From a virus (lineage: Duplodnaviria > Caudoviricetes): a stretch of DNA of 51,157 nt. Positions 3,576 through 46,770 of the stretch are shown here, piece after piece. Within the stretch, counting starts at the first letter, position 1. Each line of letters begins with the position of its first letter. The notes under the pieces are model-generated. The model was not told the origin of the DNA, ran no database searches, and was given only the letters and a program-made list of their open reading frames with translations. The stretch spans positions 1-51,157 of the IMG/VR virus record IMGVR_UViG_3300028920_000091. One strand, 5' to 3'. A program made the position numbers and the translations under genes.

Positions 3576-3609
3576 AAGAGTGTTGAAACTAAAGAGAGGA
3601 GGTGATATA

Positions 3610-4476
3610 ATGAACATAGCTCCAAGACTGGAAATGAAAACCAAGGACAAGGATGTGCGGTTTCCTGCCGTAGTTGAGCCGAAGTATGACGGCGAGTTCA
3701 ATGTCTACTTCAACGGCAAGCTCATCAACAGACACGGAAGGGTGAGGGCCAACACTGCTATCACGGATACGCTCCTAAGTATATTCGGCAGTGACTGTGT
3801 GCTGTATGGCGAGCTTATCAAAGAGGGTGGTCAAGCAGGTGACATCTTCAAGCTCAACAGCGATAAGGATAATCCCACATGCTACATGGTCTTTGATGTG
3901 TTGCATTACCAAGGCGAGGACCTCACAAAGCATCCGCTGATGGAACGGAAAACACTGCTGTCTCAGATATGGGACACTCTGCCCGACGGGGCGGTCTGGA
4001 ACACATGCACGGGTGACTTCAATGTGGATATTGTCCTCGGAACCAAGGTGCATACACATCAAGAACTATGGCGTGAATATCAACAGGCTACCAAGTCAGG
4101 ATACGAGGGTGTGGTTGTAAAGCCACTCAATAGTGTGCTACCTGTGACATCATGGGTTAAGCTCAAGACTGAGTTCACCTCAGACCTCAGGGTCTATAAG
4201 GTGTGCCAAGACCAAGAGCGGATAGAGGTAGAGCATGATGTATACAATGAGGCAGGTGACTACCTGTTCAATGTGGTAACTGGCGTGAAGTGTGTTGATA
4301 AATACAAGAAGGACATCAAGGTGGGTGACATCGTTGAGGTTAAGTATAATCAGATACTGGGTAGTGGGTCATTGAGACACCCAGTGTATGTGCGTAAGCG
4401 TGATGACAAAACAAGAGGGGACAGCATAACTGTCCGCAGAGGAGGTGACGAGAGTGAAGACGAGCAAAGTGAGTGA
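3610..4476 (+). CDS. ATP-dependent DNA ligase (minimal: adenylation plus OB domain)
   Basis: Motif I EPKYDG, LYGEL, VFDVL, EGVVVK, WVKLK and C-terminal SLRHPVYVRKRDDK; GGAGGTGA RBS. Confidence 0.92.
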   Translation: MNIAPRLEMKTKDKDVRFPAVVEPKYDGEFNVYFNGKLINRHGRVRANTAITDTLLSIFGSDCVLYGELIKEGGQAGDIFKLNSDKDNPTCYMVFDVLHYQGEDLTKHPLMERKTLLSQIWDTLPDGAVWNTCTGDFNVDIVLGTKVHTHQELWREYQQATKSGYEGVVVKPLNSVLPVTSWVKLKTEFTSDLRVYKVCQDQERIEVEHDVYNEAGDYLFNVVTGVKCVDKYKKDIKVGDIVEVKYNQILGSGSLRHPVYVRKRDDKTRGDSITVRRGGDESEDEQSE

Positions 4477-5806
4477 CCAGACACTGCGTGAAATGCGTGA
4501 TACCTTAAAGCCACACAGGCAGAACAGCAAGTGGATAGCACACCAGTTGCTATCACAGAGAGGGCAAAAGCTACATCACAGCACGATAAGGCAGAGGTTC
4601 ATTGACATGGGTGAACCACTGGGAGGCAAGAAGACGACACCAAAACCAACACCACAAGGAGGAGGAAACATGAGCAAAGGAACCTTCAAGTTCAAGAAGG
4701 GCGATAAGCTAATCATATCGCACACCTTGCCTGATGATGACACTGTATTACCCGGCATCAATGACGAGATGAGGCAGATGAAGGGCAGGTCAGTGACCAT
4801 ATCGGACATGGTAGATGACAGCAGAGGCAGGATATACTCTGTTGAGGAGTGTGAGTGGGCGTGGCTTGAGGACTGGCTTGAGGTGAAGAAGACCAAGACG
4901 AAGCGTGAGATAGAGGTGAACGCTGACCCGGTAAACCCAGAGTTGGAACAGTTCATACCCAAAGCTGAGGTGTTCGCACACTATGTGGAGAGGGGTGTAG
5001 ATGACAGGCTCGCTACTCACTTGGACCTTCAGGCATCAGGCAAGGGCAACAAGTATCCACTGTTGCAGGGTAAGCAGGGAACAGGGAAGACCATGGCACC
5101 GCAGTATTACGCACACAAGAGGGGGCTTCCTCACTTCCTGTTCTCCTGTTACGAGGACTTCAAGTTACCCAAACTGTTCGGTGATAAGACAATACGAGAG
5201 GGTAACATAGAGTTCATTGAGTCGCTGTTCGTCAAGGCGATACAGGGGCCGTGCGTTATAACCTTTGATGAAATCAATGCGATAAGTCAGCCCAATACCT
5301 ATGACTTCCATGCATTGACAGCCAACAGGGAGCTGTTCATCAAGGATGCTGACAACGGGAACGGCAAGGTGTATAAGTTGCACCCCGGCTGTCGCATATG
5401 CTTTGCTCAGAACCCAAAGAGCAAGAAGTATATCGGCGGTAATGTGAGAGCGAGCAACTTCCTTGGCCGTTGCACTTACATCAGCTACCCGGAGTTCACA
5501 ACCAAGGAGCTTGACAGCATACTTGAGAAGGCACACCCCGACATGACACCGGCAGAGAGGTCACTGTTCGTCAAGTATTACGAGGCTGTGAACAAGACGA
5601 TAGACAAGAGCGAGTTGCCTGTTGACATCAGCATAAGACAGCTCCACAACATGATAGACCTGTGGATGGCAGGCTTCTCACTGCACGAAGCGATAGAGGA
5701 CGGCATGGCTTCGGTTACTGAAGCGATAAGCCAGCCGTCAGCAAAGGAACCGTTGATGACACTGGCCAAGGGTGTGTGGTCAGACCTCAATGAAAGGAGA
5801 GTGTAA
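4454..5806 (+). CDS. MoxR/CobS-like AAA+ ATPase with N-terminal extensions
   Basis: Walker A GKQGTGKT, Walker B ITFDEIN, FAQNP sensor and SIRQL. GTG 4454 has GGAGG at good spacing. Confidence 0.88.
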   Translation: MKTSKVSDQTLREMRDTLKPHRQNSKWIAHQLLSQRGQKLHHSTIRQRFIDMGEPLGGKKTTPKPTPQGGGNMSKGTFKFKKGDKLIISHTLPDDDTVLPGINDEMRQMKGRSVTISDMVDDSRGRIYSVEECEWAWLEDWLEVKKTKTKREIEVNADPVNPELEQFIPKAEVFAHYVERGVDDRLATHLDLQASGKGNKYPLLQGKQGTGKTMAPQYYAHKRGLPHFLFSCYEDFKLPKLFGDKTIREGNIEFIESLFVKAIQGPCVITFDEINAISQPNTYDFHALTANRELFIKDADNGNGKVYKLHPGCRICFAQNPKSKKYIGGNVRASNFLGRCTYISYPEFTTKELDSILEKAHPDMTPAERSLFVKYYEAVNKTIDKSELPVDISIRQLHNMIDLWMAGFSLHEAIEDGMASVTEAISQPSAKEPLMTLAKGVWSDLNERRV

Positions 5807-7530
5807 TGGACGCACAAGAAAGGCAAAGGCGTAGGACATTTGACATCATCTCAAAGTTCATGGCTGACAAGAGCAGGGTGAGCCTTGAGATGGTAGAAAA
5901 TGCGATACCTTCATGCAACCCAAAGACAGGACACATCACACTGCCGAGCAACATGAAGACCGAGAACCTTATGGCAGCGTTGGGTCTGCTCGCACATGAG
6001 GCAGGACATATCAGGTTTACCAAGTTTGATTTGTCCAAGGCTGTGCGTAAAGACAGTGACCGGCACATCATCAATGCATGTGAGGATGCACGCATTGACA
6101 AGCAGATGATGGACCTGTTGCCCAACATGCGTGGGTTCTACCAAGAAATGTATGACAGCTTCGCTGAGAAAAGGAAGAAGAAACCAAGCACGGCACCCAT
6201 TGAAGTCAAGATACTTCAGGCCCTCATCAAGAGGAACGAGGGGTTTATGGAGAGTGTGGAGCCTGATGTATACAAGGCCATATCCGGACACAACTTAGAC
6301 CAATACTTCCAAGAAGTGATATACAAACTGTATGACTTGGCCGGCAGCGACACGAAAACCCACAGGCAGGCACTATGGGGTGCCATAGATAACTTCGCCA
6401 AGAGGTTGTTCAAAGCAAAGGAGGAGCATGAACAAGAGCAACAAGCAAAGGGACAAAAAGGAAAATGCAATGGCGGAAATGGCGGTGATGGCAACACTGG
6501 ACAAGGCTCTAACTCCACAAAGGATGCTCAAGGCACTGGCAGCGGGACAGGTGCAGGTGATAAACAAGAGCCTGACAGCGAAGGAGACGATACAGATAGT
6601 GGAAGCGGAGACGGCGATGAGGGAGATGTTCCACAAGGCAATGACAGCGGAGACGGAGGACCCGGCCAGAGCAGGAAGGCAGTCCAAGTCTCGGGCGACG
6701 GCACCTTCAAGGAGAGGCCGAAAGCCAACACCGAACTCAACCTTGACGGCATGGATGAGTATGAAGACGAGAAGCGTGAGCTACTTGAAGCGGACGAAAG
6801 CGTGGCTTATGAGCCTATTACGGAGAACGAACAGATAGCACTGAGAGAGACAACCAAGGTGTGCTTCACGGAGCTGTTGAACATCAAGGAAACCAAGGTC
6901 GTTCCCGAAGGTGAGGTGTTGGATACGGACAACTTGGTAGCGTTCCCCGTAGGTGACATTGATGCTATCTACAAGGACGCAACGCATACCAAGAGGATGA
7001 AGTCAAAGGTGCTGTTGCTGTTGGACTGTTCGGGTAGCATGGAGGAAGAACTCTATGACAAGGTGAGCAGGGAGCAGACAGTGGCAAGCACAGCCAAGTC
7101 CATAATACACATACTTGAGGAGTGCAACCAAGCGTATGGACTGGATGTGACCTATGACCTGCGTGCATTTGGTAACCGATACCACATCTTGAGCAAGGAG
7201 AACTGGGAGCGTGAATACTTCAGGATACCTGACGGCGGCACATCGTTGGAGACGGCCTTCAATGCGTCACTGGAGGAGATGATGAAGGCATGGGATGTGG
7301 ATGGGAACAAGCTCATCCTCACTATCACTGACGGCGAGGTGAACCAGCGAGAGATAGAGGAAGTAAGAAAGAAAATCATAGACAATGCAAGCACAATTAA
7401 AGTCATGGTGGTGGGTGTCGGTGCTTGCCCGGTCGGCCACTTTACCAAGCTGATAACAAGGCACAACATTATCACTGGTGAGATGGCAGACAGGACCATC
7501 ATGGACGCAATAACAGAGATGTTAGACTAA
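5806..7530 (+). CDS. CobT-like protein: HExxH metallopeptidase-like domain, acidic linker, vWA domain
   Basis: HEAGH and NACEDARID motifs, MIDAS LLDCSGSM, GGT and ITDG; coupled to the AAA+ gene. Confidence 0.88.
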   Translation: MDAQERQRRRTFDIISKFMADKSRVSLEMVENAIPSCNPKTGHITLPSNMKTENLMAALGLLAHEAGHIRFTKFDLSKAVRKDSDRHIINACEDARIDKQMMDLLPNMRGFYQEMYDSFAEKRKKKPSTAPIEVKILQALIKRNEGFMESVEPDVYKAISGHNLDQYFQEVIYKLYDLAGSDTKTHRQALWGAIDNFAKRLFKAKEEHEQEQQAKGQKGKCNGGNGGDGNTGQGSNSTKDAQGTGSGTGAGDKQEPDSEGDDTDSGSGDGDEGDVPQGNDSGDGGPGQSRKAVQVSGDGTFKERPKANTELNLDGMDEYEDEKRELLEADESVAYEPITENEQIALRETTKVCFTELLNIKETKVVPEGEVLDTDNLVAFPVGDIDAIYKDATHTKRMKSKVLLLLDCSGSMEEELYDKVSREQTVASTAKSIIHILEECNQAYGLDVTYDLRAFGNRYHILSKENWEREYFRIPDGGTSLETAFNASLEEMMKAWDVDGNKLILTITDGEVNQREIEEVRKKIIDNASTIKVMVVGVGACPVGHFTKLITRHNIITGEMADRTIMDAITEMLD

Positions 7531-8456: not shown

Positions 8457-8802
8457 CAAATATGAGTTCTATGACCAAGACTCACCGGAAGGAAAGGCCG
8501 CATACAAACAGGCCCTCGGCGATGCCTTCCTCACATTGAGTGAGATGCAGAGGGGGGACTCCTTCTATATCATAACCATCAAGAAGGGGTTGTTCTCCAA
8601 GTCGGGGAGGATAATCGGGAAGTGCATGAGCCAAGATGTAGACCAAATGAGGAAGTTGCTTACCCAGTTATCGGATGACCTTTCCAAATCCAACAGCACC
8701 AAGGAAGAATACGATGAGTTCAACAGAATAATGGAGAACTTCTATGACAACGATACCGAACAACCCGACGAGCAAGGACCTCCTGACACGGAAGGAGATT
8801 AA
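8446..8802 (+). CDS. Hypothetical protein
   Basis: 118-aa ORF in operon context. Confidence 0.7.
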   Translation: MEHDKYEFYDQDSPEGKAAYKQALGDAFLTLSEMQRGDSFYIITIKKGLFSKSGRIIGKCMSQDVDQMRKLLTQLSDDLSKSNSTKEEYDEFNRIMENFYDNDTEQPDEQGPPDTEGD

Positions 8803-9019
8803 GACTGAAGCTGACCTTGTAGTGTTCCTTAAGTATGCCTACCTCTCAGGCTACAAGGAAGCTTACAAGCTGAGTGTGGAAGGCAAGGTCTGCCCCCGCT
8901 GTGGGGAAACTATACGCAAGAGACTCGCCCCGGACGATAAGACACTATGGAAAAGGATAAGTGTTCACTTCCATAAGTGGCTCTTGTCCATATCTAAGCA
9001 GAACCCGCATCAAGAATAG
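8744..9019 (+). CDS. Hypothetical protein with CPRC motif
   Basis: Last + strand ORF; GGAG RBS. Confidence 0.65.
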   Translation: MTTIPNNPTSKDLLTRKEIKTEADLVVFLKYAYLSGYKEAYKLSVEGKVCPRCGETIRKRLAPDDKTLWKRISVHFHKWLLSISKQNPHQE

Positions 9020-9419
9020 CCACGAACCCACGCTGATATGGCCTCTTAACGCACAGCAAGGGGATACCATTGCCCCCGTATCCCTTTGCTTGTGCAAGGC
9101 CACGCCTGATAAACTCTGCCTTCCGCTTGGACAGCAACCCAACGAACCCACGCATGCTGATGGCAAGTATATCGGAGACCTCTATCTCATGTGATGGTAT
9201 AAGCACATACAGCGTGTGGCTTTTCTTTGTCCCCACCACGAACCCGCAGGTGTAGTCAACCATAAGATACTTGGGAACCTGCTTACCATACTTGCACTCT
9301 ATTGAATAAATAGGATGGTCAATATCAGCAACCCTATCATGGTAACCAACACGGATGTTGCGTTTCCCACCAAGCACATGGGCTACCTCCTTCTCAAGTT
9401 CTTTCCACGCTTTCACCAC
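8994..9419 (-). CDS. PD-(D/E)xK nuclease, putative Holliday junction resolvase
   Basis: WKELEKEVAHVLGG...ADID...IECKYGK; at the end of the replication module. Confidence 0.72.
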   Translation of the reverse strand: MVKAWKELEKEVAHVLGGKRNIRVGYHDRVADIDHPIYSIECKYGKQVPKYLMVDYTCGFVVGTKKSHTLYVLIPSHEIEVSDILAISMRGFVGLLSKRKAEFIRRGLAQAKGYGGNGIPLLCVKRPYQRGFVAILDAGSA

Positions 9420-9645
9420 GCCCCCCTTTTACTATTTTCTTAGCCGCTTTTTCTATAAGGTCATCCAAGCTTTTGTCCTTCTTCTCGGTAAGCTTTTTCT
9501 TTTCGTTTGACTTGAGCTTCTGTGCCTGCTTAAAAGCACTGCGAATATACTCATTGTGGGTCGCATAAGAATAAGTCGCAGTGAACAGGTCACGCAAATC
9601 CGTATCAAGTAGCCCACCCCAATTTTCTGTTGCTACGATACCCAT
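9394..9645 (-). CDS. 83-aa protein with an N-terminus homologous to the major capsid protein N-terminus and a Lys-rich tail
   Basis: MGIVATENWGGLLDTDLRDLFTATYS versus [29 protein letters not shown] (16/26 identical); GGGGGTGA RBS. Confidence 0.8.
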   Translation of the reverse strand: MGIVATENWGGLLDTDLRDLFTATYSYATHNEYIRSAFKQAQKLKSNEKKKLTEKKDKSLDDLIEKAAKKIVKGGRGESVERT

Positions 9646-10160
9646 GTTATCACCCCCAATAGTAACCCGTATAACCAACACGCCCACCACCAGCTATCAG
9701 CCGGACACCATACCTTGACCAAGCCTATCTTTTTGCATGGCCCCCAGCTCCACTCAAAACAATTAGAACTGATGGCGGCCCCGATAAAACCAACACCCGA
9801 CAGCACAAGGATACCAAGCATAGGCAACCAAGAGAACCCATGGCCCACCCAGTAATACCATGCCGGTATCGCACCGCACAGCAACCCGTTCAGGAACAAC
9901 CCGAAGAACCCCATGGCCTGCTCTATTATGTCCGTCCCGGCCCACACCATCTGTATGCACTCATCATAGAACAGGGCTTGGTATATGCCCCAGCTTAAGA
10001 ACACAAGGAACAGGTAGAAATACCAAGGGTATCCACCAAGCAACGCAAAGACAGCCGTCACCAAGCCGACCAACAGGCCACGCTTCCACTTGCCGAAGCC
10101 ATGCTCTCCCCCGATAGCCCACGCAAACCCCATCAGTATCGCCAGTATTATGCCCATCAT
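9633..10160 (-). CDS. Multi-pass membrane protein
   Basis: Several hydrophobic Trp/Gly-rich segments. Confidence 0.8.
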   Translation of the reverse strand: MMGIILAILMGFAWAIGGEHGFGKWKRGLLVGLVTAVFALLGGYPWYFYLFLVFLSWGIYQALFYDECIQMVWAGTDIIEQAMGFFGLFLNGLLCGAIPAWYYWVGHGFSWLPMLGILVLSGVGFIGAAISSNCFEWSWGPCKKIGLVKVWCPADSWWWACWLYGLLLGVITWVS

Positions 10161-10444
10161 TCCCCCTTTACAAATGTCGCCAACACATCCATCTCGTCCT
10201 GTAACAGCATCTCCTCCCCGTCAATGACAAGGCCAACCCCTACAAACTTGTCTATCAACACCCGGTCACCCACCTTAAGGTCTATGCACTCATTGGCCTC
10301 TACTACCTTGCCCGTCAGCAACCTGCTGTTTCCCCACAGGTCAGCATCCACCGATTCCGGAAGGTGTATACCGCCCTGAGAAACAAGCTTGGGTATCTCC
10401 AACTGCAACAACACATGTCCCCTCTTAGGCTTTAGTAACATCAT
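10157..10444 (-). CDS. groES: GroES/Cpn10-like co-chaperonin
   Basis: LKPKRGHVLL...SQGGIHLP...GKVV...LKVGDRVLIDKFVG...IDGEEMLL.DEMDVLA. Confidence 0.88.
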   Translation of the reverse strand: MMLLKPKRGHVLLQLEIPKLVSQGGIHLPESVDADLWGNSRLLTGKVVEANECIDLKVGDRVLIDKFVGVGLVIDGEEMLLQDEMDVLATFVKGE

Positions 10445-10623
10445 ACTCTCCTTTTTTGTATAGTTTTTTTGCCTTTCGGTATGCCCTTCTTGGGTCTACC
10501 TTTTTTCTTATGCTTTCCGGCAGGTGTGCGTATTGCATCATCACTGCCTTGCGTATCGCCTTTGACTTCACCTTCCTCATGTTCCCCCAGTTCATATGGT
10601 TTCGTAGTCATCACCCATGACAT
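10441..10623 (-). CDS. Small basic hypothetical protein
   Basis: GAGGA RBS; Lys-rich C-terminus with a KGRPKK AT-hook-like motif. Confidence 0.6.
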   Translation of the reverse strand: MSWVMTTKPYELGEHEEGEVKGDTQGSDDAIRTPAGKHKKKGRPKKGIPKGKKTIQKRRV

Positions 10624-10825
10624 TCCTCAACGGCACAGCATAACAAGTTATTTTCCCGTTAGTTTCCAGCGGGTGCTTCACTATGTCCGCACCCGTCATC
10701 TGGTAACTTCTTCCCTTTAGCGTTCCCTTTGTGAACACTATGTCGTTTAGGTCTTTTACTTTGTATTTTGCTATCAGCACCGTCCTGTCGTGCCACCGTG
10801 GGTTCCATATTTCTATTCTGTTCAT
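10592..10825 (-). CDS. Hypothetical protein
   Basis: GGAGGAGG RBS. Confidence 0.75.
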   Translation of the reverse strand: MNRIEIWNPRWHDRTVLIAKYKVKDLNDIVFTKGTLKGRSYQMTGADIVKHPLETNGKITCYAVPLRNVMGDDYETI

Positions 10826-11099
10826 CCTCCTCCAATCGTCTTGTCAGCCACCCCTCATAGAGTATGCCTTCATCCAATGTTATACGATACTGTGCTATGA
10901 CACTATCATGGCACGCATGGCATAACCCAACGGCATTGAAGGGGCTATGCACGAAGTTAGGACACATTGAACGGGCCAGACTGCTGTTGTGCAACCTGTG
11001 ATGCACTTCTTCCATTGGTTTAAGACAGTGCTTACAATACCCGTGCTGTGCTTTAAACACAAGTGTCCTAACTTCATGCGAGAACCCCTCACAATTCAT
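10659..11099 (-). CDS. HNH endonuclease
   Basis: CKHC...EVHH...NAVGLCHACH. Confidence 0.82.
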   Translation of the reverse strand: MNCEGFSHEVRTLVFKAQHGYCKHCLKPMEEVHHRLHNSSLARSMCPNFVHSPFNAVGLCHACHDSVIAQYRITLDEGILYEGWLTRRLEEDEQNRNMEPTVARQDGADSKIQSKRPKRHSVHKGNAKGKKLPDDGCGHSEAPAGN

Positions 11100-11251
11100 G
11101 CCCTACCTGCTGTCCTTGTTTTGGCACCTCTCGGTGGTTGCCTCTTGGTCCCACGGTTGCCAACACCACCGCCGGAACCATCACGCCTGCGGGTCCCACC
11201 GCAACTACCCCTGCCACCACGACCTGCGTTACCACGACCTGTTCTTGCCAT
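11096..11251 (-). CDS. 51-aa Gly/Arg-rich peptide
   Basis: Read by hand: MARTGRGNAGRGGRGSCGGTRRRDGSGGG...; AAAGGAG RBS, overlapping start/stop with both neighbours. Confidence 0.7.
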   Translation of the reverse strand: MARTGRGNAGRGGRGSCGGTRRRDGSGGGVGNRGTKRQPPRGAKTRTAGRA

Positions 11252-11577
11252 CACTTGTCTCCTTTCAGTTTACCTCTCGGGACTATGTATACCTTCCCGT
11301 CCTTGTATATGACATCCAGCCTGAACTTATACTTCGTCTTGGCCCGTGTCCTGATATAGGATTTGAACCCCGTATACTGTTTCATGTTCTCAATGCCAAG
11401 GCTACCCATGTCATTCCACATAACATCCTCAGTGTCCAAGGTGATAGCCCGCTCAATGATGTGGTCATACCTGCCCCTCACCTGCTTGCACCCCTGCTCC
11501 AGTATGTCCTCCACATTGCTCTTTGGTATCACCAGCCACCCGTTCCCCGTTGCTATCTTCTTCTTCCTTCCCATCAC
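11251..11577 (-). CDS. Hypothetical protein
   Basis: AAGGAGG RBS. Confidence 0.75.
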   Translation of the reverse strand: MMGRKKKIATGNGWLVIPKSNVEDILEQGCKQVRGRYDHIIERAITLDTEDVMWNDMGSLGIENMKQYTGFKSYIRTRAKTKYKFRLDVIYKDGKVYIVPRGKLKGDK

Positions 11578-16866: not shown

Positions 16867-16894
16867 AGTATAGCATGAAAAAATCTTTAGTCAA
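16867..16894 (-). promoter_or_regulatory. Sigma70-type promoter of the replication module
   Basis: TTGACT-16 nt-TATACT with extended -10 TG, just upstream of the exonuclease RBS. Confidence 0.75.
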
Positions 16895-17645
16895 GAGGGT
16901 AGCCCAAAAAAAGCAGAGGTTTTTTCAGGAAATCATAGTCCCATTGTTTCCTCGGAAGGTTACGCCAGAGTTGCATCCTGTCTTTCCGGGGAGGGGGGAT
17001 GTTCTTTATCTCTATGCCCACGAAATCCCCGAGCCTTTTTACCTCCCGTTCAGGGTGTTCAAGGAAATCCTCATACCGTATCATCAGGAAGTTTTTGGGG
17101 GCAGGGGTCTGGAACATGATGTCAAACTGGAACTTCCATGACAAGGCCCGGTTCATATAGACATCATCCGTCAGGGGGCAGGGGACATCAAAGGCACCCA
17201 GTATATCCGTGATGTGCGGACCCTGTATGACATCCCGTGGGTCCCTTACCCAATAGACAAAGCTCATCTCGGGGAACATGCGGGCCAGCCACGGGTAGAT
17301 AAGGCCCGTCTCCGGTAGCTTCCACCCACGCTTACCCTCCCTGTTAATGATAGACGAAAGATACTTGCTGAGTTGCTTGTCAATGTTGGGTATAGTGCCG
17401 CTGATAAGGGTCTTCAGGTTCCACAGGCCACCGGTGATATGCCTCGCACGGTAACCGGCCATACGGCACACGCTATAATAGACATTATTTGTGCCTATCA
17501 GGTCCATGGATTTGTTGAGAGGGGTCCCCATAAACACGCCGTTATCTTGTAAAAGCTGTGTAGGAATCCTTGTCCCAGAGTGACCCCTCCCGAAAACGCA
17601 CACCACATCCTGCGAATTAAGCGAATTAAGCGGATTAACTTTCAC
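16887..17645 (-). CDS. Sulfotransferase family protein
   Basis: 5'-PSB-like GRGHSGTR, RGWKLP, WVRDPRDV and IRYEDFLEHPE motifs. Confidence 0.85.
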   Translation of the reverse strand: MKVNPLNSLNSQDVVCVFGRGHSGTRIPTQLLQDNGVFMGTPLNKSMDLIGTNNVYYSVCRMAGYRARHITGGLWNLKTLISGTIPNIDKQLSKYLSSIINREGKRGWKLPETGLIYPWLARMFPEMSFVYWVRDPRDVIQGPHITDILGAFDVPCPLTDDVYMNRALSWKFQFDIMFQTPAPKNFLMIRYEDFLEHPEREVKRLGDFVGIEIKNIPPPRKDRMQLWRNLPRKQWDYDFLKKPLLFLGYPLD

Positions 17646-18172: not shown

Positions 18173-21100
18173 TTATATTACCCCCAAGTGTTGCCTTCTT
18201 ACCCTCTTGGTAGAGGTCTGGAACTTATAGGCGTAGGGATTTGTCATGCGTAACATGAAGTTTTCCAAGATGGTGTTTATATCCTCGCCCTTATCCATAG
18301 CCAACATCATCAACTCCTCATAGTCACCGGCCATCCATGCCTGCTTCATCTTCTGGTCTATGCGGCCCTTCTCGTATTTCTCCGTTGCCCTTAACCTCAT
18401 CAAGTCCTGATAGTCCAAGTAATCTTGGCCAACACCGCCGGTTGACCTGCCGGTGCGGACACCTACAAAGCCAAGCATGTCCTCCTTGCTTGACCTCATC
18501 TTCTCATAGTCCGTCAGCTTGACAAAGCCCGGGTCAAAGCTGTTGATGAACCTCATTATCCCATGCTTAAGCCTCTCCTGCGGGGGTGCCCCCTCGTCAT
18601 AGTCTATGGTGTTGTCGCCCCACCACTCCTCACCCAGTGCCGTGTTGACTATGAGGCCAAGCGTCGGGTCCTTCTTGTTGCCGAAGTATCTCATGGCCTT
18701 GCCTTGGGATACATCCCACGGTGTCCCTAAGAGCATAGCAAGGTCCCTGACATCCTTAAAGAGCGGAGGTGTCCATGTGATGCCGTTGCCCATCTCGTCT
18801 ACCATGCCCGTATCCACCTCAAACCACTCGTCACGGGGCTTCTCCCACGGGAATACGCCGCCCACAAGGTAGCTGTATATGCCTGCCATGGTAGCAAAGC
18901 CCAACACCTGTGACATTATCTGCCTCCTAAAGAACTGGGCGTTAGCCTTCAGCTCCTTCTCTGTCCATCCGTGATGGCCCAGTGTAAGCGTCTGCCTCGT
19001 ATCCAACGGCCCAAGAACAGGACCACGCCCGAACATGCCGGATGCCTGTTTCCAGAGCGAGAGCTGTGCGTTACGGGCAAGCAGGACATACCTCCAGAAG
19101 TTGGCAGAACTGCGGGAGAAGGCATAGTTGGACGGGAACCCGAAGGCCGTGTTGATATTGTCTGCCGCCATAATGCCGGCTTGACGCTCGGCAAAGCCCT
19201 CCTTCATAAGCTGCCGCCTACGCATATCCCACGCCTGCACTGACGCTCCCTCTGCCGCCTTCCATAGCCAACGGGTAAGACCGGCCTTATCATAGACCAT
19301 ATCTTCCAGCATACGCTGCTTACTCTTGCCGGGGCCGAACTCTACCATCCCCAGAAAGTCATCGGTGAAAGCTGACAGTGCGTTCCTGTGCGTAGTGGTA
19401 TTCAGGCCATGCCTTGTAGCCGCATCCAGCAATTCCTTGGGCGATTGCCACTTACGCAGGCTCTGTATGCCCGGTATCTTATTGATACCCAACAGCGACA
19501 CCTCGGGTAGCCCAGCCATAGCGTGCTTAAGCATGCTCCCGCCTGCCTGCAATGCGGCCAGTGACCAGCGTGGCACATTATACCAAGCGGCCCCGTTCAT
19601 GCAGGTAGGTATAAGCGAATTGTATACCTGCCATGCCTGATATGTGGGGTTCATAAGGACAGCCAGCTTGTGGAGACCACGCACCTTGTTGTAAGCACGG
19701 CCAAACTTGTTGCCCTGACCGGCCCCTATCTTGGGAGCCTTCCCGCCATAGAACTCCTCAAGTAGCTTGTAAGACTCCATCGCATCCTTGTGGACCCACA
19801 ACGGCTTGAAGTCCCCGCCCGCATAGCTCCCGAACTTACGCCGCTGGTAATCACCGTCCATGGCCCTGTAATTATTCCAGTTAAGACCCTCAGGAGCGGA
19901 CGCTTTATACATCACCATAGGCTCACCCGTGGTAGCGGTGTTGGTATGCATCAGGTCGTTGATTACCCCGAACAGGTCAACAGACTTGCTCTGCTCCAGT
20001 ATCTGATGGAGTATCATCTTCTGCGGGTCCATCACAAAGTAGTCTTCCATTTCATGTCCGGCCGCCCTGATGTCACGCTCAACTTCCTCTATGCCCTTGC
20101 GGGCATCCCCTTCACCCTTGCTTCTCTTACGCTGTGAGGAAGTGTAGGCTTTATCAGCCAGCACGCCACGGGACAGAAGCTCGCCCTTCTCGTTCAGTGC
20201 TATCCTCGGCATATACCCTACCTCAGCCTCCGCCTCGGCCGCCTTGGGGCTGAAGAACCCCTTGTCCACGCCGTCCTTGAGCATCTGCTTGTATTCGGCT
20301 TTGAGCTTTAATAGTATTTCCCTATATTCAGGCCGGAGATTGTCCCAGTAGTGCCGGGTCTGGCCGAGCTTGGTCTTGGAATACATCCATGGCCTTGCCG
20401 GGTCAGGTATCATAATGTCCTCACCGGCCAGATACATCTGCCGCCATATCATCTTGAGCTGTTGCTTGTTCTTTGTATCAACACCAGTCAGCTTGTATGC
20501 CTCTGTCATGGCATCACCGATACGCTTGTTTACCTCGGCCGCCCTGAGCATAAGCTCCCTGCCGGCAGGCACACCGCTGAACCTCATAGCCCTGTATACG
20601 GCATCCTTCTCATGGAACGCAGAGAAGTTCATATGCCCGCTGGTCTTAAGTATATCGTCAAAGTATTTACGCTGTTCCTTAAGCTGTTCCTGTGACAGCC
20701 CTATCCTGCCCCCGGGTGTATCAGCGGCCGGGTTGGTAAAGCGTGTCCATGACCTGTTGGCAAAGAAGTTAAACAGTGAACCCATCCCGAAGAAATCCAC
20801 ATAGAACATACCACCGCCCTTATCGGAGCGTGTGGTCATGGGACCGAAATGTCCCAGCCCTTCGCCTACCTCGCCGACACCCATCTCCTCCTGCATGGTG
20901 TTGGCTTCAATAACATCCCTGAGGCCGGTAAGATATATGGGTGCCATGCGTCCCTTCTTAAGCCTCTCAGCCAACACGCTCTCCATCTCGGCTTTCTTCT
21001 CGGGCGTGATGATACGCATATCTACATCAAGACCCTGTTGCTTAAACCAGTTCTGCCAGAAGCCCTGCATATCCTCCATGTATTTCTCACGCTGGACTCT

Positions 21101-24100
21101 CTGCTCTGATACGGGTGCGTTGGGGTCTGGCCTGAAGGTCTTACCCAGGCTGGTATGCTCGGATGACTTCCATTGTAAAGGATACTTTCTCCTCAAAGAC
21201 AACGCCTGCCTGAATATGGAGGTGGCCGCCGGTGTCAGAGACTCCGTATCGGGGCGGGAGAGAGGCTCTACAAGGCGTTTCATTGTATGTAGCCCTTGGC
21301 TCAACCTCTCCATGGCCAACCCTAAGGTCTCCAGCTCGGATGTGTAGGTCTCCCACCTGCCCTGTAAGTCCCTGCTGGTTATGGTCTCATACTCAAACAT
21401 CTTGGTTTTCTTATCCCACTTGGGTATTATCCTTATACCACGGATGTCCTTGGCCTCCCTGACTATACCTACTTTATCCTCCCATATCCAGCCCTTGGCT
21501 CCCTTTGGACCCCGACCTTCAAAGCCTATGATTATGGGTGTAGCCCCCTTGATACCCTTAACCCTCTGCCCCCTGTTTATAATGTCATTGTATGTAAGGC
21601 TCTGTGTTTCCATCTGCTTCTTGAACCTTGCTACAGTTTCCCAATACTCAAGCTGCCCCTTCAGCGTCACACCCTCAGCAGGTCTCCCTTCCCGCATGTC
21701 CTTGACTATGCGGGCCATGTTGGTTTTATGTTTCTTGGCAAACTTAAAGATGTCCTTGCGTAAGGTCTCCGCCGCAGCCAACTGCTCCTTGCCACGCTCC
21801 GTTCCCGTAGCCCTGAGCTTCTCTTTTATCGTGGCGTTGAACACACGGTTTAATACATTGCCTATAGTGGCACCCTCTACAGTCACATAGGTCCCGTTAA
21901 TATCCTCATGGTTCTGTGCTATGTTGCCGGATATGACACGGGACTTATCCTTGCCCATGAAGCTGTCCTTAAGGGAAGGTTGTTTCGTGAAGGCAAGCTC
22001 TACCATCTCGTCAATAAAGGCATTGACACCGCCTTTACCAACAAAGACATCGGTGCCTTTCTCCATACCATCCAGCACATAGTCATAGATATACGATGTC
22101 CTCTCCGCAGTGGCATTAATGTCGTTGATTAACTTGGCCGCCTTATCCAAAGCGTCTTGGCTGGCACCTTGCCTGCCTATGTAATCTGTAATAGCATTAC
22201 GCAGTGTGCGGGCCTCCTTGGTGCCTCCGCCTATGGAGTCCAAGAGACCCTGATACTCGTTAAGCTCGGCGGGTAGCCCCCATTTCTCATACCACTTCAC
22301 TACCTCACGGGCCTGTTTGGCTGTAACGCCGGCCTTCTTAACCAACACCTCGGCCGGGTTCTCCAAGGTGTATATGGCTTCTCTTAAACCCTGTATGCCC
22401 TTGAAAGCCTTGAGCAGTTTCCTTTCTACATTGGGAGTAACGCCCCGTGCGTTGGCTACCTCTGTCCTCATATCACCAGCACGCACCCTGTTCACCGTAT
22501 ATTCAAATAGCTGGTCTTTAATGTCCAACATGGAGAAGTCTGTCCCGATAAGCTTCTCAATATCCTTGATGCTGTTGGCCGGGTTCTTAGCTTTGGTATT
22601 ACGCACAGCCTTCAGGAAGGCCGGGGCCTTTGACTTCTTGGCCAAGTTATCAATGGCTGACATTACTGCCGTCTCGGCACGCACGGCACTCATATCCGAA
22701 GACTGCCTGAATATGTCGGGAGTTATCTTAGTGTCGGGGGTAAGCTCAACATTGCTCTTAAAGTATTCCCCAAAATATTTCTGGAGAGTTCCAATGGTCT
22801 TGGACTGTTCCTCGTATGCCTTAGGGCCAGTGTATTTGTTAAGTAACTTCTGCTCCCTTTCGTTCCAGCCTGCCGGCTTTATCCTCCTGCCAGCTCCCTC
22901 GCCTGTCTCTATCTGTGGTATATCACCCTTGATAAAATGTTCCAGCAGAATATCACCCAAGCGGGCCGCTTTATCCCCCAGCTTGTAACCTTCTACAGCC
23001 TTATGGATACCCTGCATGACATTTTGAAGTCGGCTAAGAACATCACCTGTCTCCTCAAACTTGAAGGGAGACTTCCTGCCACCTACATACTGCCTTCTTG
23101 CAACATCCTGTGAGAGTGAAAGCAAGTCACTCTTGGAAGCAAGTTGCGTCTCCCTTACGCTATCCTTAAGGACTGACTCCGGAACGCACACCTCAATCAC
23201 AGGTATGCCTGCCTTCCTTGCGAAGGCCGCTTCACGGGGTGACTTACCCCTGCGATATACCAACAGTGATACATCCTCCCGGTATTTAAGAGCATCCTTT
23301 GGGTTAAGGAAATCCATAGTCATGCCCGTAACAGCATCCGCCTTCCAGTCAAACTGTTCGTGCATGGCTACACGGCGGTCACTGACCCACTTCCTAAGGT
23401 TGGCCTTGCTGACTACCCTCATCACACCGGTAGACTCGGGAGAATACAGGAACTGTAAAGCCTCGTCTATGCTTGAAAAGGTAAGCTGTTGGCCAAAGCG
23501 GTAGTCTATGCCCTGCCCAGTATGGCCCGTAACGAATACGGCCTTACCCTCAAGGCCACGGAAATCGTTAGCACTATCCGACTGGGGTATGTCGCCTATA
23601 GCCTTGCGGCGTGCCAACGCCTCCTGTGCCAACTTATGTGAAGCCATCTTACGCCCGAATACATTGGTTCTTATCAACGCTTCTCTCTGCTTAAGCATCT
23701 CAGGTGTTGGCTCTAATCCTTCAGACGGGTCTATTATGGCCTGCATGGTTTCCTTGTTGACACCCGTCTCCCTGCACAATACATCCATGGATATACCATC
23801 AGCAGCAAGCTGGCTTAAAGCGGCCGCTTCACGGGCCAGTAGCTTATTAGCCATCCTGCTGAAATCCTCGGCCAGAGGAGCAAGAGCCTCATGCTCGGCA
23901 AGCTTCATGGATTCCATGGCAAGCTTCTTGGCTAATTGTATATTTCTATCAGCAAGCAGGAACTCTATACGCTTGGCAGGTTTGTCTAACCGTTCAGGTG
24001 CCTTCTCGCCTATGGTCTGCCTGACCTTATTCAGTATACTTTGGAACTCATCCTGCTCAGTGGGTGTGCGTTTTGCTTTTCTGTTCAGTGCCTGTAGCCG

Positions 24101-34007: not shown

Positions 34008-34008
<1 letters not shown>
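33670..34008 (-). CDS. Putative tail fibre accessory / assembly protein
   Basis: MARYFAEI...YAGKGYTY...PYPSWTL...WEPPVP..YYWNE pattern, between the fibre and the Gly-rich gene. Confidence 0.65.
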
Positions 34009-38735
<4,727 letters not shown>

Positions 38736-38746
<11 letters not shown>

Positions 38747-39221
38747 CTCTCACCGCCAATAACATGTTTGTCTTTTTTGTATGAAACCTCGCATCCACCT
38801 TGTATCCCCTGTCCTCCCAGAACTTAACAGGCCAGAAACTCTTATGCCTCTGTAGCTCAGGCAATGTCATCTCAAAGTTCATCTTCTCGTTGGGCGTGAA
38901 TATGACTATCCTTTTCTTGGCTATGCCCTCCAGAGCTTCCAGTGCATACAGGGCGGCCGCCTGTTCCAGATGCTCTATCCCGTCCAGCCACATCACCACA
39001 TCAAAGCTCCTCGGAATAAACAGGCTTCCTATCTCAGCCACATTGTATACAATGGGTATGTGTGTTTTACCTATCTTTGCAAGCCGGGTCAAATCTAAAT
39101 CAACACCTATCTTTATCTTTGCGGGAAGCTCCCGTGTTGGGTTACACTCACCGCAACACACATCCAGCATGGTGTCTTGCTCGTTTATCAGCGGCCTTAA
39201 ATGATAAGTAAGATATGTCAT
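38736..39221 (-). CDS. Class I SAM-dependent methyltransferase
   Basis: MLDVCCG, IGVD and SFDVVMWLDGIEHL motifs. Confidence 0.85.
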
Positions 39222-39913
39222 ACCAACAGTGTCCTCCAATCCTGTGCCGGACCTGTCCCCCATTTTCTCCTGAACCTCTTTTTGTTATATTGAAACAGGG
39301 GCTTCTTGTTCATTTCCTTATAGGTCGTGGTGCAATTATGCTTCACAAACGCAGGGGCTACCCGCATCTTACCCCCGGCCTTAAGGTAGCATATACAAAA
39401 ATCATCGTCCTCGCAGCCATACCCGGAGAACTGCTTATCCAGATAGCCTATCTTGTTGAACACCTCGTTGTGGATAAGCACACAAAAGAAGTTCATGGTC
39501 CTGTATGTATCCTTGGCTACGCCTGCGGACTGGGCCTTCTGGTCAGGGTTCATCACCCCGTTGGAATACGGCCCAACCATACCGATATTCACCGGGATAT
39601 GCGGCCGTGCCGGCCCCGGGAGCTGTTGCACCATGGCATCTATAGCTCCGGGTGTAAACTCTATGTCGTTATTACATATGAGCTTAAGTGGATTTTTACC
39701 GAACTTAACCCCTATGTTGACATTGCGGGCAAAGACAAACTTACCCTTTGTCGGGATGACCATGGCTCCCTTACGCTCGCAGTATTCCTGCGTCCCATCC
39801 GTAGAGCCGCTATCCACAACTATAAGCTGATAAGGATACTTAGTATTGATACTCTCAATACACTTCTTCGTGTCCTCAATGTGGTCCTTTGTGAGTATTA
39901 TAATATCTATCAT
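39218..39913 (-). CDS. Glycosyltransferase family 2
   Basis: IIILT, IVVDSGSTDGT, CNNDI and YGCEDDDFC motifs. Confidence 0.92.
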   Translation of the reverse strand: MIDIIILTKDHIEDTKKCIESINTKYPYQLIVVDSGSTDGTQEYCERKGAMVIPTKGKFVFARNVNIGVKFGKNPLKLICNNDIEFTPGAIDAMVQQLPGPARPHIPVNIGMVGPYSNGVMNPDQKAQSAGVAKDTYRTMNFFCVLIHNEVFNKIGYLDKQFSGYGCEDDDFCICYLKAGGKMRVAPAFVKHNCTTTYKEMNKKPLFQYNKKRFRRKWGTGPAQDWRTLLV

Positions 39914-43072: not shown

Positions 43073-43853
<781 letters not shown>

Positions 43854-43921: not shown

Positions 43922-44818
43922 TTACGAAACATTGGCACCGTAAACCCATGTCCAGCTTGAGAAACCATAGCTGTAACGGGTGTATACGGACCACTTGCTG
44001 ACATAGGTATCAAAGTCCTTGTCCTTGTTGAACTCGGTCGGTATCCTGTCAAACCACTTCAGGAACATCTTTGAATACCTGCTGTCTATGAGGAACCAGT
44101 TGTTGGTATCGCTCAGGTAATCCCAAACGATAACATTATAGCGGCCCTTCCAGAAGTTGGCAGTGTTGTCCGAACTGTCAACGACCTTATCGGAAGCCAT
44201 AAGTTCCCATGCCGTCTGTTCCAGTTCCGGCGGGACCAGCAATGTGTCGCCCATCGCAGTGCAGAGGTTATCCGTCTCGTCAAGATAATCCCTCATGGCC
44301 AGCCTTGCGGTAGCCAGAGAGGTCTTGGACAGGGCCGTAGTCCCTATGTTGCTCTGGGTTGTGGCAGTGCCGACCCAAGTGTGGCCCGAGGCACACAGAG
44401 CTTGGGAGTCACCACCAGCGAACACACTGGTATTAAACGCACTGTTGAACACAGACGCAGCATGCTTTTCCCGTGTGCGTTTTGCCGAGACAGCAAGCTG
44501 CTGAGGTCTGCGGTTTATGATGCTGTAAAGGTCATCATCCACCAGCTTCCTCTCTATTTTCATACCCTTCACCCACTCCTTGTGGGTATAGGATATGCGA
44601 TACTGACCTTCAAAGTCCGTGTAGGGAATTGTCCCCGTGAACTCCTCAAGGTCACCTATTCCGCCTATGGCATAGTCGTATTCAACGGCTTTACCAGAGG
44701 TTTCCACGCCGTAGAGTTTCTCTGACTGCGTGTCGGGTAGGCTGTATTCGTCAAGGAATATCTTTCTCAGACCGGGGTCTAAGAGATACCCAAAGTTTTC
44801 TGACGCTACAATACCCAT
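43922..44818 (-). CDS. Major capsid protein (Mu gpT-like, HK97 fold)
   Basis: 298 aa; [30 protein letters not shown] and RYSYGFSSW motifs; GGAGGTGA RBS; position after the scaffold. Confidence 0.88.
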
Positions 44819-44840
44819 TGTGTATCACCTCCTCGGATGT

Positions 44841-45633: not shown

Positions 45634-45918
45634 TTATCGTTTACTCCCCCCGGTTTGTTCTATAATGTCCCTGAACTTACCGGCATGCTTGCCACCATTG
45701 GCAAGTGGAGCATACGGATGCATGTCAGGCCGGCCTGATATGTCGTATTGAAAAGGCACACCGCATTTCCTGCAACGATACCGCAGTCGTGTGGGGCCTA
45801 TGTTCTCCACGAACCTTATGGCCTTGCTCTGGCATGTAGGGCAAATCAGTTCGCCCCTATATGCTCCCGGATTTATCCCCTTCTTGAGGATATTTCCATT
45901 GGTTATTATCTCGGTCAT
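45634..45918 (-). CDS. Zinc-ribbon protein
   Basis: CPTC...YRCRKC. Confidence 0.72.
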   Translation of the reverse strand: MTEIITNGNILKKGINPGAYRGELICPTCQSKAIRFVENIGPTRLRYRCRKCGVPFQYDISGRPDMHPYAPLANGGKHAGKFRDIIEQTGGSKR

Positions 45919-46715
45919 TTCTGCCTCCTTGACTTATGCTTCTTGTAGTCCTCCGGCTTTACACCCATGACCATAGCCGCAGCCTGCTCCTGCTGGCTGA
46001 GTGGCTCGTCATCGGATGTTGCCTGTGCGGATGGCGTATAAGTCCCTTGGAGACCCTGCACTTGTTCACCCTTCTGGATTTTAGACAACACTTCCTGCTG
46101 TGCCTGCTGGGTAAGAGCCTCAACCTTCTGACCTTTGACAAGGTAGTAAGCCATGTCAACGATACCCGGCTGTGTCCTCTGTGCCGGCGGCAACGCCCGG
46201 ACATAGTTGTCTATCTCGGTAGCATAAGTAGGATAGTCCTTGTATTTACCCATGGCCTGTGCCTTTTGCCCGTCCACAGCACGCTGCATACCATCGTAGT
46301 GCTGTATCCCGTTCTCTATCATCCATGCCGTAGCCTGCATTGGGTCTTGCTCCCATAGCTGTGCAGCCTGTTGCATAAGGTTCTGCTGAGGCTGCTGAAA
46401 GCTCTGTGCCGGATAATAGTTCTGGGCTGGCGGTATCTGCATAGGCGGTTGGCCATATACCTGCTGTTGTCCCATCCTACTCTGCACCTCCTGCACCAAC
46501 TGGGTGAGGTTCTGCACTTGGTCTCTAAGTTCCTTAGCTTTTGCCCTTTCTTCCTGCAAAGCGGTCAAAGGAACCATTTGCCCCTGTTGTTGCCCAGCTT
46601 GGGCCTGCTGGGAAGCAGCCTGTTGCTGACCCTCTTGGGCCTGCTGGCCGGCTGCGGCCTGTTCGTTTGCAGGGGCTGCCGAACCCTGCTGATTATTTAC
46701 GGCGGCTTGTGTCAT
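45915..46715 (-). CDS. Capsid scaffolding protein
   Basis: Gln/Ala-rich, VPLTALQEERAK coiled coil, C-terminal MGVKPEDYKK; between portal and MCP. Confidence 0.72.
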   Translation of the reverse strand: MTQAAVNNQQGSAAPANEQAAAGQQAQEGQQQAASQQAQAGQQQGQMVPLTALQEERAKAKELRDQVQNLTQLVQEVQSRMGQQQVYGQPPMQIPPAQNYYPAQSFQQPQQNLMQQAAQLWEQDPMQATAWMIENGIQHYDGMQRAVDGQKAQAMGKYKDYPTYATEIDNYVRALPPAQRTQPGIVDMAYYLVKGQKVEALTQQAQQEVLSKIQKGEQVQGLQGTYTPSAQATSDDEPLSQQEQAAAMVMGVKPEDYKKHKSRRQK

Positions 46716-46770
46716 GTTATGACCTCCATTTACCATGGCTGTTACGGACAACCACGAAACCGATGCAGCG

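What the first reader, a model, noticed from the sequence alone, without database searches (positions are those of the whole stretch)
9394..9645. A small non-structural-region protein copies the N-terminus of the phage's own major capsid protein
Seen: MGIVATENWGGLLDTDLRDLFTATYS matches the MCP N-terminus [26 protein letters not shown] at 16 of 26 residues, starting at Met1. The upstream RBS context is also alike (GGTGATA-AC-ATGGGTAT versus GGTGATA-CACA-ATGGGTAT). Many shared residues use different codons, which suggests conservation at the protein level rather than a fresh duplication. The remaining ~55 aa are an unrelated Lys-rich helix. The gene is 35 kb from the MCP, in the replication operon, two genes after GroES, so it should be made before the capsid. 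Inference: a capsid N-arm mimic acting as (a) a decoy for capsid-sensing abortive-infection sensors, (b) an assembly inhibitor/timer or exclusion factor against related phages, or (c) a tag that docks a basic DNA-binding peptide inside the capsid. I know of no described example.
Basis: partly seen in the sequence, partly recalled or inferred. Interest (0 to 1): 0.85.

Follow-up and report, generated by a model that had tools for sequence, protein, structure and literature searches.

The report
Orphan gene copying capsid N-arm
A small gene found only in this one phage begins with a diverged copy of the first 26 residues of the phage's own major capsid protein; the copy is real and the gene looks translated, but nothing yet shows what it does.

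Summary
The ORF at 9394-9645 (minus strand, 83 aa) shares 16 of 26 residues, from Met1, with the Mu gpT-like/HK97-fold major capsid protein (MCP, 43922-44818). BLASTP gives E 1e-7. A profile built from 31 MCP N-arms, without this ORF, finds it as the only second hit in the genome (E 2e-4). No other ORF start in the window exceeds 7/26.

The ORF looks coding. It has an SD plus ATG, fills a 213-nt gap between two genes, and its codon-usage score equals the mean of real genes.

It is a strict orphan. Only itself is found among 5.8 billion clustered proteins and 1.84 billion representatives, and none of 9 related phage records has a second N-arm copy.

Eleven of 16 shared residues use different codons. 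That implies peptide-level constraint only if the donor was the resident MCP; a neutral copy from an unsampled relative is not excluded.

The claim that the protein is made before the capsid is unsupported. The function (N-arm partner binding, decoy, timer) is untested.

Side finding: in relatives, the same N-arm coding stretch is a hot spot for group I introns with HNH endonuclease genes. This suggests a break-repair origin for the copy.

The parts
9394..9645 (-). Orphan ORF, 83 aa (P0002). ATG at 9645, stop at 9394-9396.
   Evidence: Codon-usage log-odds of its exclusive part (9420-9632) is 0.228 per codon, against 0.233+-0.092 for in-frame windows of 25 training genes and -0.50+-0.22 off-frame.
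9568..9645 (-). Codons 1-26: diverged copy of the MCP N-arm.
   Evidence: 16/26 identical, E 1e-7. Hit by the MCP-only N-arm profile at E 2e-4. Keeps E7, L12, L13, L17, R18 and F21; loses P15 and G16; I20 becomes L.
9648..9657 (-). Shine-Dalgarno-like GGGGGTGATA, which contains the GGTGATA shared with the MCP gene. It also encodes the end of the upstream membrane-protein gene.
   Evidence: The upstream gene tail GVITWVS* is read from GGGGGTGATAACATGGGTATCGTAG.
9394..9567 (-). Codons 27-83: charged Lys/Glu-rich helix with no detectable relative. The last 26 nt overlap the next gene.
   Evidence: no family or relative. (helix 10-74). (charge counts). (overlap with 8994-9419).
43922..44818 (-). 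Major capsid protein, 298 aa, HK97 fold, Mu gpT-like / Phage_capsid_4.
   Evidence: Pfam PF25209 E 2.2e-16 and PF10124 E 2.4e-14. phrog_371 E 9.6e-23. Foldseek top hit SU10 capsid 7z48_F, E 2.8e-6. PDB profile hit 8rkc, E 6.4e-5.
44741..44818 (-). MCP N-arm, codons 1-26, the source-type segment.
   Evidence: Invariant P15, G16, L17, F21 and near-invariant E7, L12, L13, R18, I20 in 31 MCPs.
44823..44829 (-). GGTGATA in the MCP ribosome-binding site.
45915..46751 (-). Putative scaffolding protein (Gln-rich, helical), with a conserved C-terminal motif AAxAMG...E.Y. A candidate partner of the N-arm.
   Evidence: Homologues lie upstream of the MCP in 27 related loci. Alignment A2 of 20 sequences. 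No family hit. The role is inferred from position and composition.
10157..10444 (-). GroES/Cpn10-like co-chaperonin, two genes upstream of the ORF.
   Evidence: Pfam PF00166 E 2.8e-8. phrog_3188.
9633..10160 (-). Predicted membrane protein, 175 aa. Its last 13 nt overlap the ORF's first codons.
   Evidence: No family. Membrane nature judged by eye from the sequence.
8994..9419 (-). Downstream gene, 141 aa, last of the minus-strand block. Looks like a PD-(D/E)xK-type nuclease by eye.
   Evidence: 44% identical homologue in related record G004. No family hit.

Best explanation
The ORF is a lineage-specific chimeric gene. A stretch of about 90 nt from an MCP gene (the ribosome-binding site plus the first 26 codons, which encode the capsid N-arm) was copied into the variable accessory region. 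There it supplies three things: the stop codon of the upstream membrane-protein gene, a ready translation start, and the N-terminus of a new 83-aa protein whose remainder is a novel charged helix.

Status of each step:
- Shown: the homology, its anchoring at Met1, the gene-like features, and the orphan status.
- Inferred, about 0.85: origin by partial duplication or ectopic copying. This was possibly helped by double-strand breaks, because in relatives exactly this stretch is a homing site for group I introns with HNH endonuclease genes.
- Inferred, about 0.65: the ORF is translated.
- Inferred, about 0.3: mode of action. The N-arm-like amphipathic segment keeps the conserved hydrophobic positions I3, V4, W9, L12, L13, L17, L20, F21 and Y25, plus E7 and R18. 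It would engage whatever normally holds the MCP N-arm during procapsid assembly. In phage 80alpha that partner is the C-terminal helix-and-hook of the scaffolding protein. The small protein would then either ride into procapsids or compete with MCP for scaffold.
For: Homology.

Gene-like features: SD plus ATG. The ORF exactly fills the 213-nt gap between two genes and overlaps both. Codon-usage score is 0.228 against a gene mean of 0.233; only 0.6% of off-frame windows score as high.

Constraint:
- 11 of 16 shared residues are encoded by different codons, including two-step switches at L13, R18 and S26.
- pN 0.37 against a saturated pS 0.78; bootstrap pN/pS 0.24-0.83, with 0.3% of replicates at or above 1.
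- Under a null with the MCP branch constrained and this branch neutral, conditioned on the observed 35+-2 nt differences, 0 of 3194 simulations reach 15/25 identity.
- 35 of 738 possible single-base changes would create a stop. The ORF staying open has P 0.03-0.10 for a neutral branch of 0.2-0.3 substitutions per site.

Own-lineage donor: the ORF is closest to its own MCP (16/26, then 15/26, among 41 MCPs). The first 24 nt match at 20/24, whereas the own MCP matches the MCPs of 18 relatives at only 13-18/24.

The N-arm as an interaction module: it is the most conserved part of the MCP family. In 80alpha the scaffold C-terminus binds the capsid protein N-arm helix, and a satellite protein competes there (PMC5644958, passages read).

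Break-repair route: group I introns interrupt codons 12-17 of the MCP gene in relatives.
Against: No relative of the gene exists in any collection searched. None of 9 related records has a second N-arm copy. There is therefore no comparative evidence of selection on this gene itself.

The copy has lost P15 and G16, which are invariant in 31 MCPs. It is predicted as one uninterrupted helix, so it may not adopt the N-arm conformation.

Three of 9 (near-)invariant positions changed, against 7 of 16 variable ones. The substitutions thus do not visibly avoid constrained positions.

Divergence is mosaic: 20/24 nt identical at the start and 23/54 afterwards, Fisher p 0.001. A single simple duplication does not explain this.

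If the donor was an unsampled relative's MCP, a neutral branch of t = 0.2-0.3 gives at least 15/25 identity in 38-81% of simulations.

Confidence: 0.4

Rival explanations
1. Functionless by-product. A fragment of an MCP gene, possibly from a co-infecting relative, was pasted into the accessory region by illegitimate recombination. The resulting ORF is open by luck and drifts neutrally. It may or may not be translated.
For: Strict orphan status. Absent from 9 of 9 related records. Loss of the invariant P15 and G16. The neighbourhood is hypervariable: the flanking genes are found in 1 of 5 and 0 of 5 relatives. A neutral branch of t = 0.2-0.3 from a foreign donor reproduces the identity.
Against: Codon usage is typical of real genes. 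The ORF stays open despite 35 stop-prone single-base changes (P 0.03-0.10). It has an SD at proper spacing and tight packing with both neighbours. Under an in-genome duplication model neutrality is rejected, with 0 of 3194 simulations reaching the observed identity.
Confidence: 0.3
2. Captured translation start. What matters is the MCP gene's efficient ribosome-binding site and first codons, which drive expression of the charged helix. The helix would be the functional part, for example in nucleic-acid or membrane-proximal binding. The N-arm residues are passengers.
For: The SD plus first 8 codons are much better conserved at the nucleotide level (20/24; third positions 5/8) than codons 9-26 (23/54; third positions 4/18), Fisher p 0.001. 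GGTGATA at SD spacing is shared only by these two of 36 genes.
Against: Codons 9-26 keep 9/18 residues with saturated synonymous sites. Only 1 of 20000 random placements of the observed differences does as well. That pattern points to the peptide, not the RNA. Part of the 5' conservation is explained by the overlap with the upstream gene's last codons and stop.
Confidence: 0.12
3. Chaperonin-targeting leader. The MCP N-terminus would direct proteins to the GroEL/GroES-type folding machine, and the small protein uses the same leader.
For: A GroES-like gene lies two genes upstream. For T4, a review states that the N-terminus of gp23 targets fusion proteins to GroEL, and T4 encodes its own co-chaperonin gp31 (PMC3012670, passages read).
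Against: An 83-aa single-helix protein needs no chaperonin. Among the four related records scanned with the Cpn10 profile (three of them at least 98% complete), only G003 has a Cpn10 gene, and it has no such small gene nearby. The highly conserved N-arm is therefore not tied to a phage GroES. Gene proximity is the only link.
Confidence: 0.05
4. Decoy against host defences that sense capsid protein, or an exclusion factor that poisons assembly of related co-infecting phages.
For: Only the resemblance itself and the location among accessory genes.
Against: No defence or anti-defence family was searched for or found. There is no evidence that any sensor reads this N-arm. Early expression is not shown. 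The gene is absent from all 9 sampled relatives.
Confidence: 0.05

Closest known systems
SaPI1 CpmB, which competes with the 80alpha scaffolding protein (PMC5644958, passages read)
   Same: A small helical protein carries a short copy of a capsid-assembly interaction motif from a phage structural protein. It acts at the interface between the scaffold C-terminus and the capsid N-arm.
   Different: CpmB copies the scaffold's C-terminal motif, is encoded by a satellite, and its binding was seen by cryo-EM. Here the copied part is the MCP N-arm, the gene is in the phage itself, the protein has no similarity to the scaffold-like protein, and binding is not shown.
[quoted passage not shown]
   Same: A short N-terminal peptide is shared by otherwise unrelated small, often basic proteins and directs them into the prohead.
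   Different: The T4 sequence binds the scaffolding core, is removed by the prohead protease, and is not derived from the MCP (recalled). Here no protease gene was recognised among the 30 proteins scanned, there is only one carrier, and there are no virion data.
T4 gp23 N-terminus as a GroEL-targeting element, with the phage co-chaperonin gp31 (PMC3012670, passage read)
   Same: A phage with its own GroES-type gene, and an MCP N-terminus that acts as a portable signal.
   Different: No homology to gp23 was tested or expected. The link here is gene proximity only.
Chimeric orphan genes made by partial duplication in mosaic phage genomes (general knowledge, recalled)
   Same: A short piece of an existing gene with its start signals is fused to new sequence in a hypervariable region, and is found in one lineage only.
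   Different: The copied piece is the most conserved, interaction-prone segment of the capsid protein, and it keeps half of its residues despite saturated synonymous sites.

Membership tests
HK97-fold major capsid protein paralogue (Phage_capsid_4 / Mu gpT-like) | Match to the family profile and presence of the P and A domains | tested here: not met
   P0002 has no Pfam or PHROG capsid hit. Only residues 1-26 align to the MCP. The model is a single helix.
MCP N-arm segment of this phage family | Family-invariant residues P15, G16, L17, F21 and near-invariant E7, L12, L13, R18, I20 | tested here: inconclusive
   6 of 9 are kept (E7, L12, L13, L17, R18, F21), I20 becomes L, and P15 and G16 are lost. 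The profile hit is E 2e-4.
T4-type internal protein carrying a capsid targeting sequence | Targeting peptide shared by several cargo proteins, and a prohead protease that removes it | tested here: not met
   This is the only second copy of the N-arm in the genome. No protease family was found among the 30 window proteins scanned. Not all ORFs were scanned.
T4-type internal protein carrying a capsid targeting sequence | Presence in proheads or virions | not testable with these tools
   Needs virion proteomics.
Scaffold-mimic size or assembly factor (CpmB-like) | Sequence similarity to the scaffolding protein's capsid-binding C-terminus | tested here: not met
   BLASTP of P0002 against the scaffold-like P0012: best E 2.6.
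Genuine protein-coding gene | Start signals, codon usage, and packing between neighbouring genes | tested here: met
Genuine protein-coding gene | Conservation of the intact ORF in relatives | tested here: not met
   No homologue anywhere. Absent from 9 of 9 related records.
Genuine protein-coding gene | Expression | not testable with these tools

The most novel reading that the evidence does not exclude
A phage encodes a free-standing mimic of its own capsid protein's N-arm. The mimic uses the N-arm's assembly interface (the scaffold C-terminus or the inner shell surface) either to load a charged helix into procapsids or to tune or poison capsid assembly. This would be a class of accessory protein, a structural-protein N-arm mimic, that I found described in none of the three paper searches run.
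Probability: 0.2. Interest if true: 0.75.

Novelty: new variant of a known kind. Interest (0 to 1): 0.45.

Why it matters
If the protein is made and binds the N-arm's partner, it would show that phages can recycle a 26-residue assembly interface as a portable docking or competing module. That would give a natural handle for loading cargo into HK97-fold capsids or for blocking their assembly.

Even as a by-product, it is a clean, datable example of gene birth. A ribosome-binding site plus a conserved leader has been fused to new sequence.

The link to an intron-homing hot spot in the same 26 codons suggests that homing-endonuclease breaks may seed such copies. That idea can be tested across phage genomes.

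Tried and rejected
Searches that found nothing.
- blastn and tblastn against 50,697 phage records found nothing.
- Pattern scans with P0002 matched 214 stretches in viral contigs and 597 in metagenome contigs; none was confirmed.
- The word-indexed protein search and the exhaustive HMMER search returned only the query itself.
- The ESM Atlas gave no usable hit.
- A search for short proteins sharing MCP residues 1-40 returned 7 of 7 truncated MCPs from contig ends. That search needs shared 5-residue words, so it would miss a copy as diverged as this one.

Homology of the C-terminal part.
- No alignment to the two small ORFs next to the nuclease homologue in G004.
- No significant alignment to the scaffold-like protein.
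- No alignment to an intron-encoded HNH protein.
- My impression of a shared 'D.L..IEKA' motif with the G004 ORFs is rejected.

Synteny.
- The downstream nuclease-like gene has a homologue in 1 of 5 relatives, and the membrane protein in 0 of 5.
- Neither has close relatives in viral contigs.
- The GroES-like gene occurs in G003 in a different context.

Other checks.
- Rfam found no RNA family in the window, either at gathering scores over the whole window or at E up to 10 in 8500-11500. The ORF is therefore not next to an intron remnant.
- The promoter/terminator scan gave counts no higher than shuffles.
- Complex prediction of scaffold-like residues 60-221 (alignment A2) with P0002 returned 'no answer' (score 0.02, mark 0.32). 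This counts neither for nor against binding.
- The MCP model has low confidence in the N-arm, so it says little about the N-arm's conformation.
- Nei-Gojobori pS values above 1 for some MCP pairs show that the estimator is unreliable at 25 codons. I use those values only qualitatively.
- In one search the rows for L016 and L022 were out of register by one base and are disregarded.

No supplementary files were requested.

Full report
WHAT IS THERE

The window is a nearly complete virus record (98% by CheckV). On the minus strand it carries, in order:
- a large terminase (48925-50469);
- an SU10-type portal (46983-48728);
- a Gln-rich scaffold-like protein (45915-46751);
- a conserved 260-aa protein (44841-45623);
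- the major capsid protein (MCP, 43922-44818);
- collagen-like and glycosyltransferase genes and tail genes;
- then a PD-(D/E)XK nuclease, an AAA_24 ATPase, a DnaD-like initiator, a TylF methyltransferase, an HNH endonuclease and a GroES/Cpn10 homologue (10157-10444);
- a membrane protein (9633-10160);
- the ORF in question (9394-9645);
- a last, nuclease-like gene (8994-9419).

The MCP is a Phage_capsid_4 / Mu gpT-like HK97-fold protein.

THE OBSERVATION

- The 83-aa product and the MCP share 16 of 26 residues without gaps, from Met1 of both (E 1e-7).
- The similarity is far outside chance for this genome. Against the MCP's first 26 residues the ORF scores 16, and the best of the other 2120 ORF starts scores 7.
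- In an all-against-all comparison of 1897 starts the pair stands alone at 16, with the next best at 11. For this comparison, 225 starts in collagen-repeat regions were dropped.
- A profile made from 31 MCP N-arms, without the ORF, finds it as the only second hit in its genome (E 2e-4).
- Of the 16 shared residues, 5 use the same codon and 11 a different one.
- The remaining 57 residues match nothing. Together with residues 10-26 they are predicted as one long helix. Residues 41-83 hold 14 basic and 8 acidic residues.

IS IT A GENE?

Four features say yes.
- The ATG is preceded by GGGGGTGATA at SD spacing.
- The ORF fills what would otherwise be a 213-nt gap. It overlaps the upstream gene by 13 nt and the downstream gene by 26 nt.
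- The codon-usage score of the non-overlapping part is 0.228 per codon. In-frame windows of 25 training genes average 0.233+-0.092, off-frame windows average -0.50+-0.22, and the other five frames of the region score -0.20 to -0.65.
- Homology that begins exactly at Met1 favours the ATG at 9645 over the upstream starts that a gene caller chose (P0003, 95 aa).

IT IS AN ORPHAN

- The word-indexed search of 5.8 billion clusters returned only the query itself.
- The exhaustive HMMER search of 1.84 billion representatives did the same.
- tblastn of phage records and pattern scans of viral and metagenome contigs found nothing.
- The MCP has 51 related loci at 43-79% identity.
- In the nine related records I could search whole (G001-G009, three of them at least 98% complete), both the ORF and the N-arm profile hit only the MCP gene itself.
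- The local neighbourhood is hypervariable.

SELECTION ON THE COPIED PEPTIDE

Synonymous sites between the copy and the MCP are saturated: pS 0.78, third positions 9/26. Non-synonymous divergence is pN 0.37. The bootstrap range of pN/pS is 0.24-0.83, with 0.3% of replicates at or above 1.

Randomly placing the observed differences gives 6.3 of 25 identical residues on average. None of 20000 simulations reaches the observed 15.

A pairwise ratio mixes two branches, so I simulated a stricter null in which the MCP branch takes only synonymous changes and the copy evolves neutrally. Conditioned on 35+-2 differences, the mean identity is 7.5 of 25, and 0 of 3194 simulations reach 15.

This argument needs the donor to be the resident MCP. 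If the fragment came from an unsampled relative whose codons already differed, a neutral branch of 0.2-0.3 substitutions per site gives at least 15/25 in 38-81% of simulations. Against that scenario, the 83-codon ORF would stay free of stops with probability only 0.03-0.10.

Evidence on the donor:
- The copy is closest to its own MCP (16/26, then 15/26, among 41 MCPs).
- Its first 24 nt match the own MCP at 20/24, while the own MCP matches the MCPs of 18 relatives at 13-18/24.
- GGTGATA precedes the MCP gene in only 1 of those 18 relatives.

Divergence is mosaic: 20/24 and then 23/54, Fisher p 0.001. Part of this is explained by dual use. The SD and the first 13 nt also encode the last residues and the stop of the upstream membrane-protein gene. 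The rest is unexplained; a later short gene conversion is one possibility.

WHAT THE COPY KEEPS AND LOSES

In 31 MCPs the N-arm is the most conserved stretch. P15, G16, L17 and F21 are invariant, and E7, L12, L13, R18 and I20 are nearly so. The copy keeps E7, L12, L13, L17, R18 and F21 and all large hydrophobic positions except Y11 and L22. It replaces P15-G16 by T-D. The kink between the two short N-arm helices of the MCP model (H9-12 and H15-25, low confidence) is therefore predicted to become one continuous helix. Substitutions do not clearly avoid the constrained positions: 3 of 9 against 7 of 16.

MECHANISM

In HK97-fold capsids that use a separate scaffold, the N-arm helix is where the scaffold's C-terminus binds. 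This was shown for 80alpha, where the satellite protein CpmB competes at that site (PMC5644958, passages read).

This phage family has a scaffold-like protein with a conserved C-terminal motif. My best guess is that the N-arm-like segment engages that partner, or the N-arm's seat on the shell, and so docks into or competes within assembling procapsids. This is an inference, to which I give about 0.3.

Alternatives are listed as rivals:
- a neutral by-product;
- a captured translation start;
- a chaperonin-targeting leader, by analogy with T4 gp23 and gp31 (PMC3012670, passage read);
- a decoy or exclusion factor.

The claim that the protein is made before the capsid has no support. The structural and replication genes share one strand, and no promoter or terminator signal above background separates them near the ORF.

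AN UNEXPECTED LINK

In relatives, the N-arm coding stretch is interrupted by group I introns (Rfam RF00028, 59-72 bits) that carry HNH endonuclease ORFs.
- After codon 12 in L016-L021.
- After codons 12 and 17 in L022, leaving a 15-nt middle exon.
- At nearby positions in L029 and L037.
- In L026 an HNH gene sits before 'GLRKIF', without an Rfam hit.

The window itself has no intron. The segment copied into the orphan ORF (SD to codon 26) therefore brackets a homing hot spot. Endonuclease breaks there, repaired aberrantly, are a plausible but unproven route to an ectopic copy.

VERDICT

This is a real and statistically solid partial paralogue of the MCP N-arm, inside an ORF that looks translated. 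It is known from one genome only, and its function is unknown. It is a new variant of known themes: chimeric gene birth, and short assembly-interface mimics or targeting peptides. Interest is moderate. It would rise sharply if binding to the assembly machinery or virion incorporation were shown.

Noticed in passing
L016 3186-3909; L017-L021 (same type); L022 5289-6278; L029; L037; L026 7800-8650: Group I introns (RF00028) carrying HNH endonuclease ORFs interrupt the MCP gene inside the N-arm coding region, at three or more different codon positions (about 12, 14-17 and 17). Rfam found at least one intron in 9 of the 12 relatives scanned. L026 has an HNH insertion without an Rfam hit.
   Followed up: partly
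L022 5289-6313: Two group I introns lie only 15 nt apart in one MCP gene, leaving a five-codon middle exon (LDPGL). Exon borders were inferred from the protein alignment, not from splice data.
   Followed up: partly
window 9633-9657: The upstream membrane-protein gene ends inside the copied MCP segment. Its last residues GVITWVS and its stop codon are read from the SD and the first 13 nt of the orphan ORF.
   Followed up: yes
window 45915-46751 and alignment A2: The scaffold-like Gln-rich protein evolves fast (28-38% identity, where the MCPs are 66-79%). It nevertheless keeps a C-terminal motif AAxAMG...E.Y, likely the capsid-binding end.
   Followed up: partly
window 34008-37961 and 43116-43994: Two collagen-repeat (G-x-y) proteins, one directly after the MCP gene. 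They lie near glycosyltransferase, methyltransferase and sulfotransferase genes (38736-41735, 16887-17645), which hints at decorated or glycosylated virion fibres.
   Followed up: no
window 18173-25912: A 2579-aa ORF without any Pfam hit at E 0.001.
   Followed up: no
window 3580-7530 (+): A plus-strand block encodes an ATP-dependent DNA ligase, an AAA_5 (MoxR-like) ATPase and a vWA-domain protein. It converges on the minus-strand block that ends with the orphan ORF's operon.
   Followed up: no
MCP profile A1 against PDB 8rkc: The matching segments to the Mu GpT-domain capsid protein come in swapped order (query 158-221 to target 230-292; query 239-289 to target 169-225). This may be a permutation or a weak spurious second segment.
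   Followed up: no
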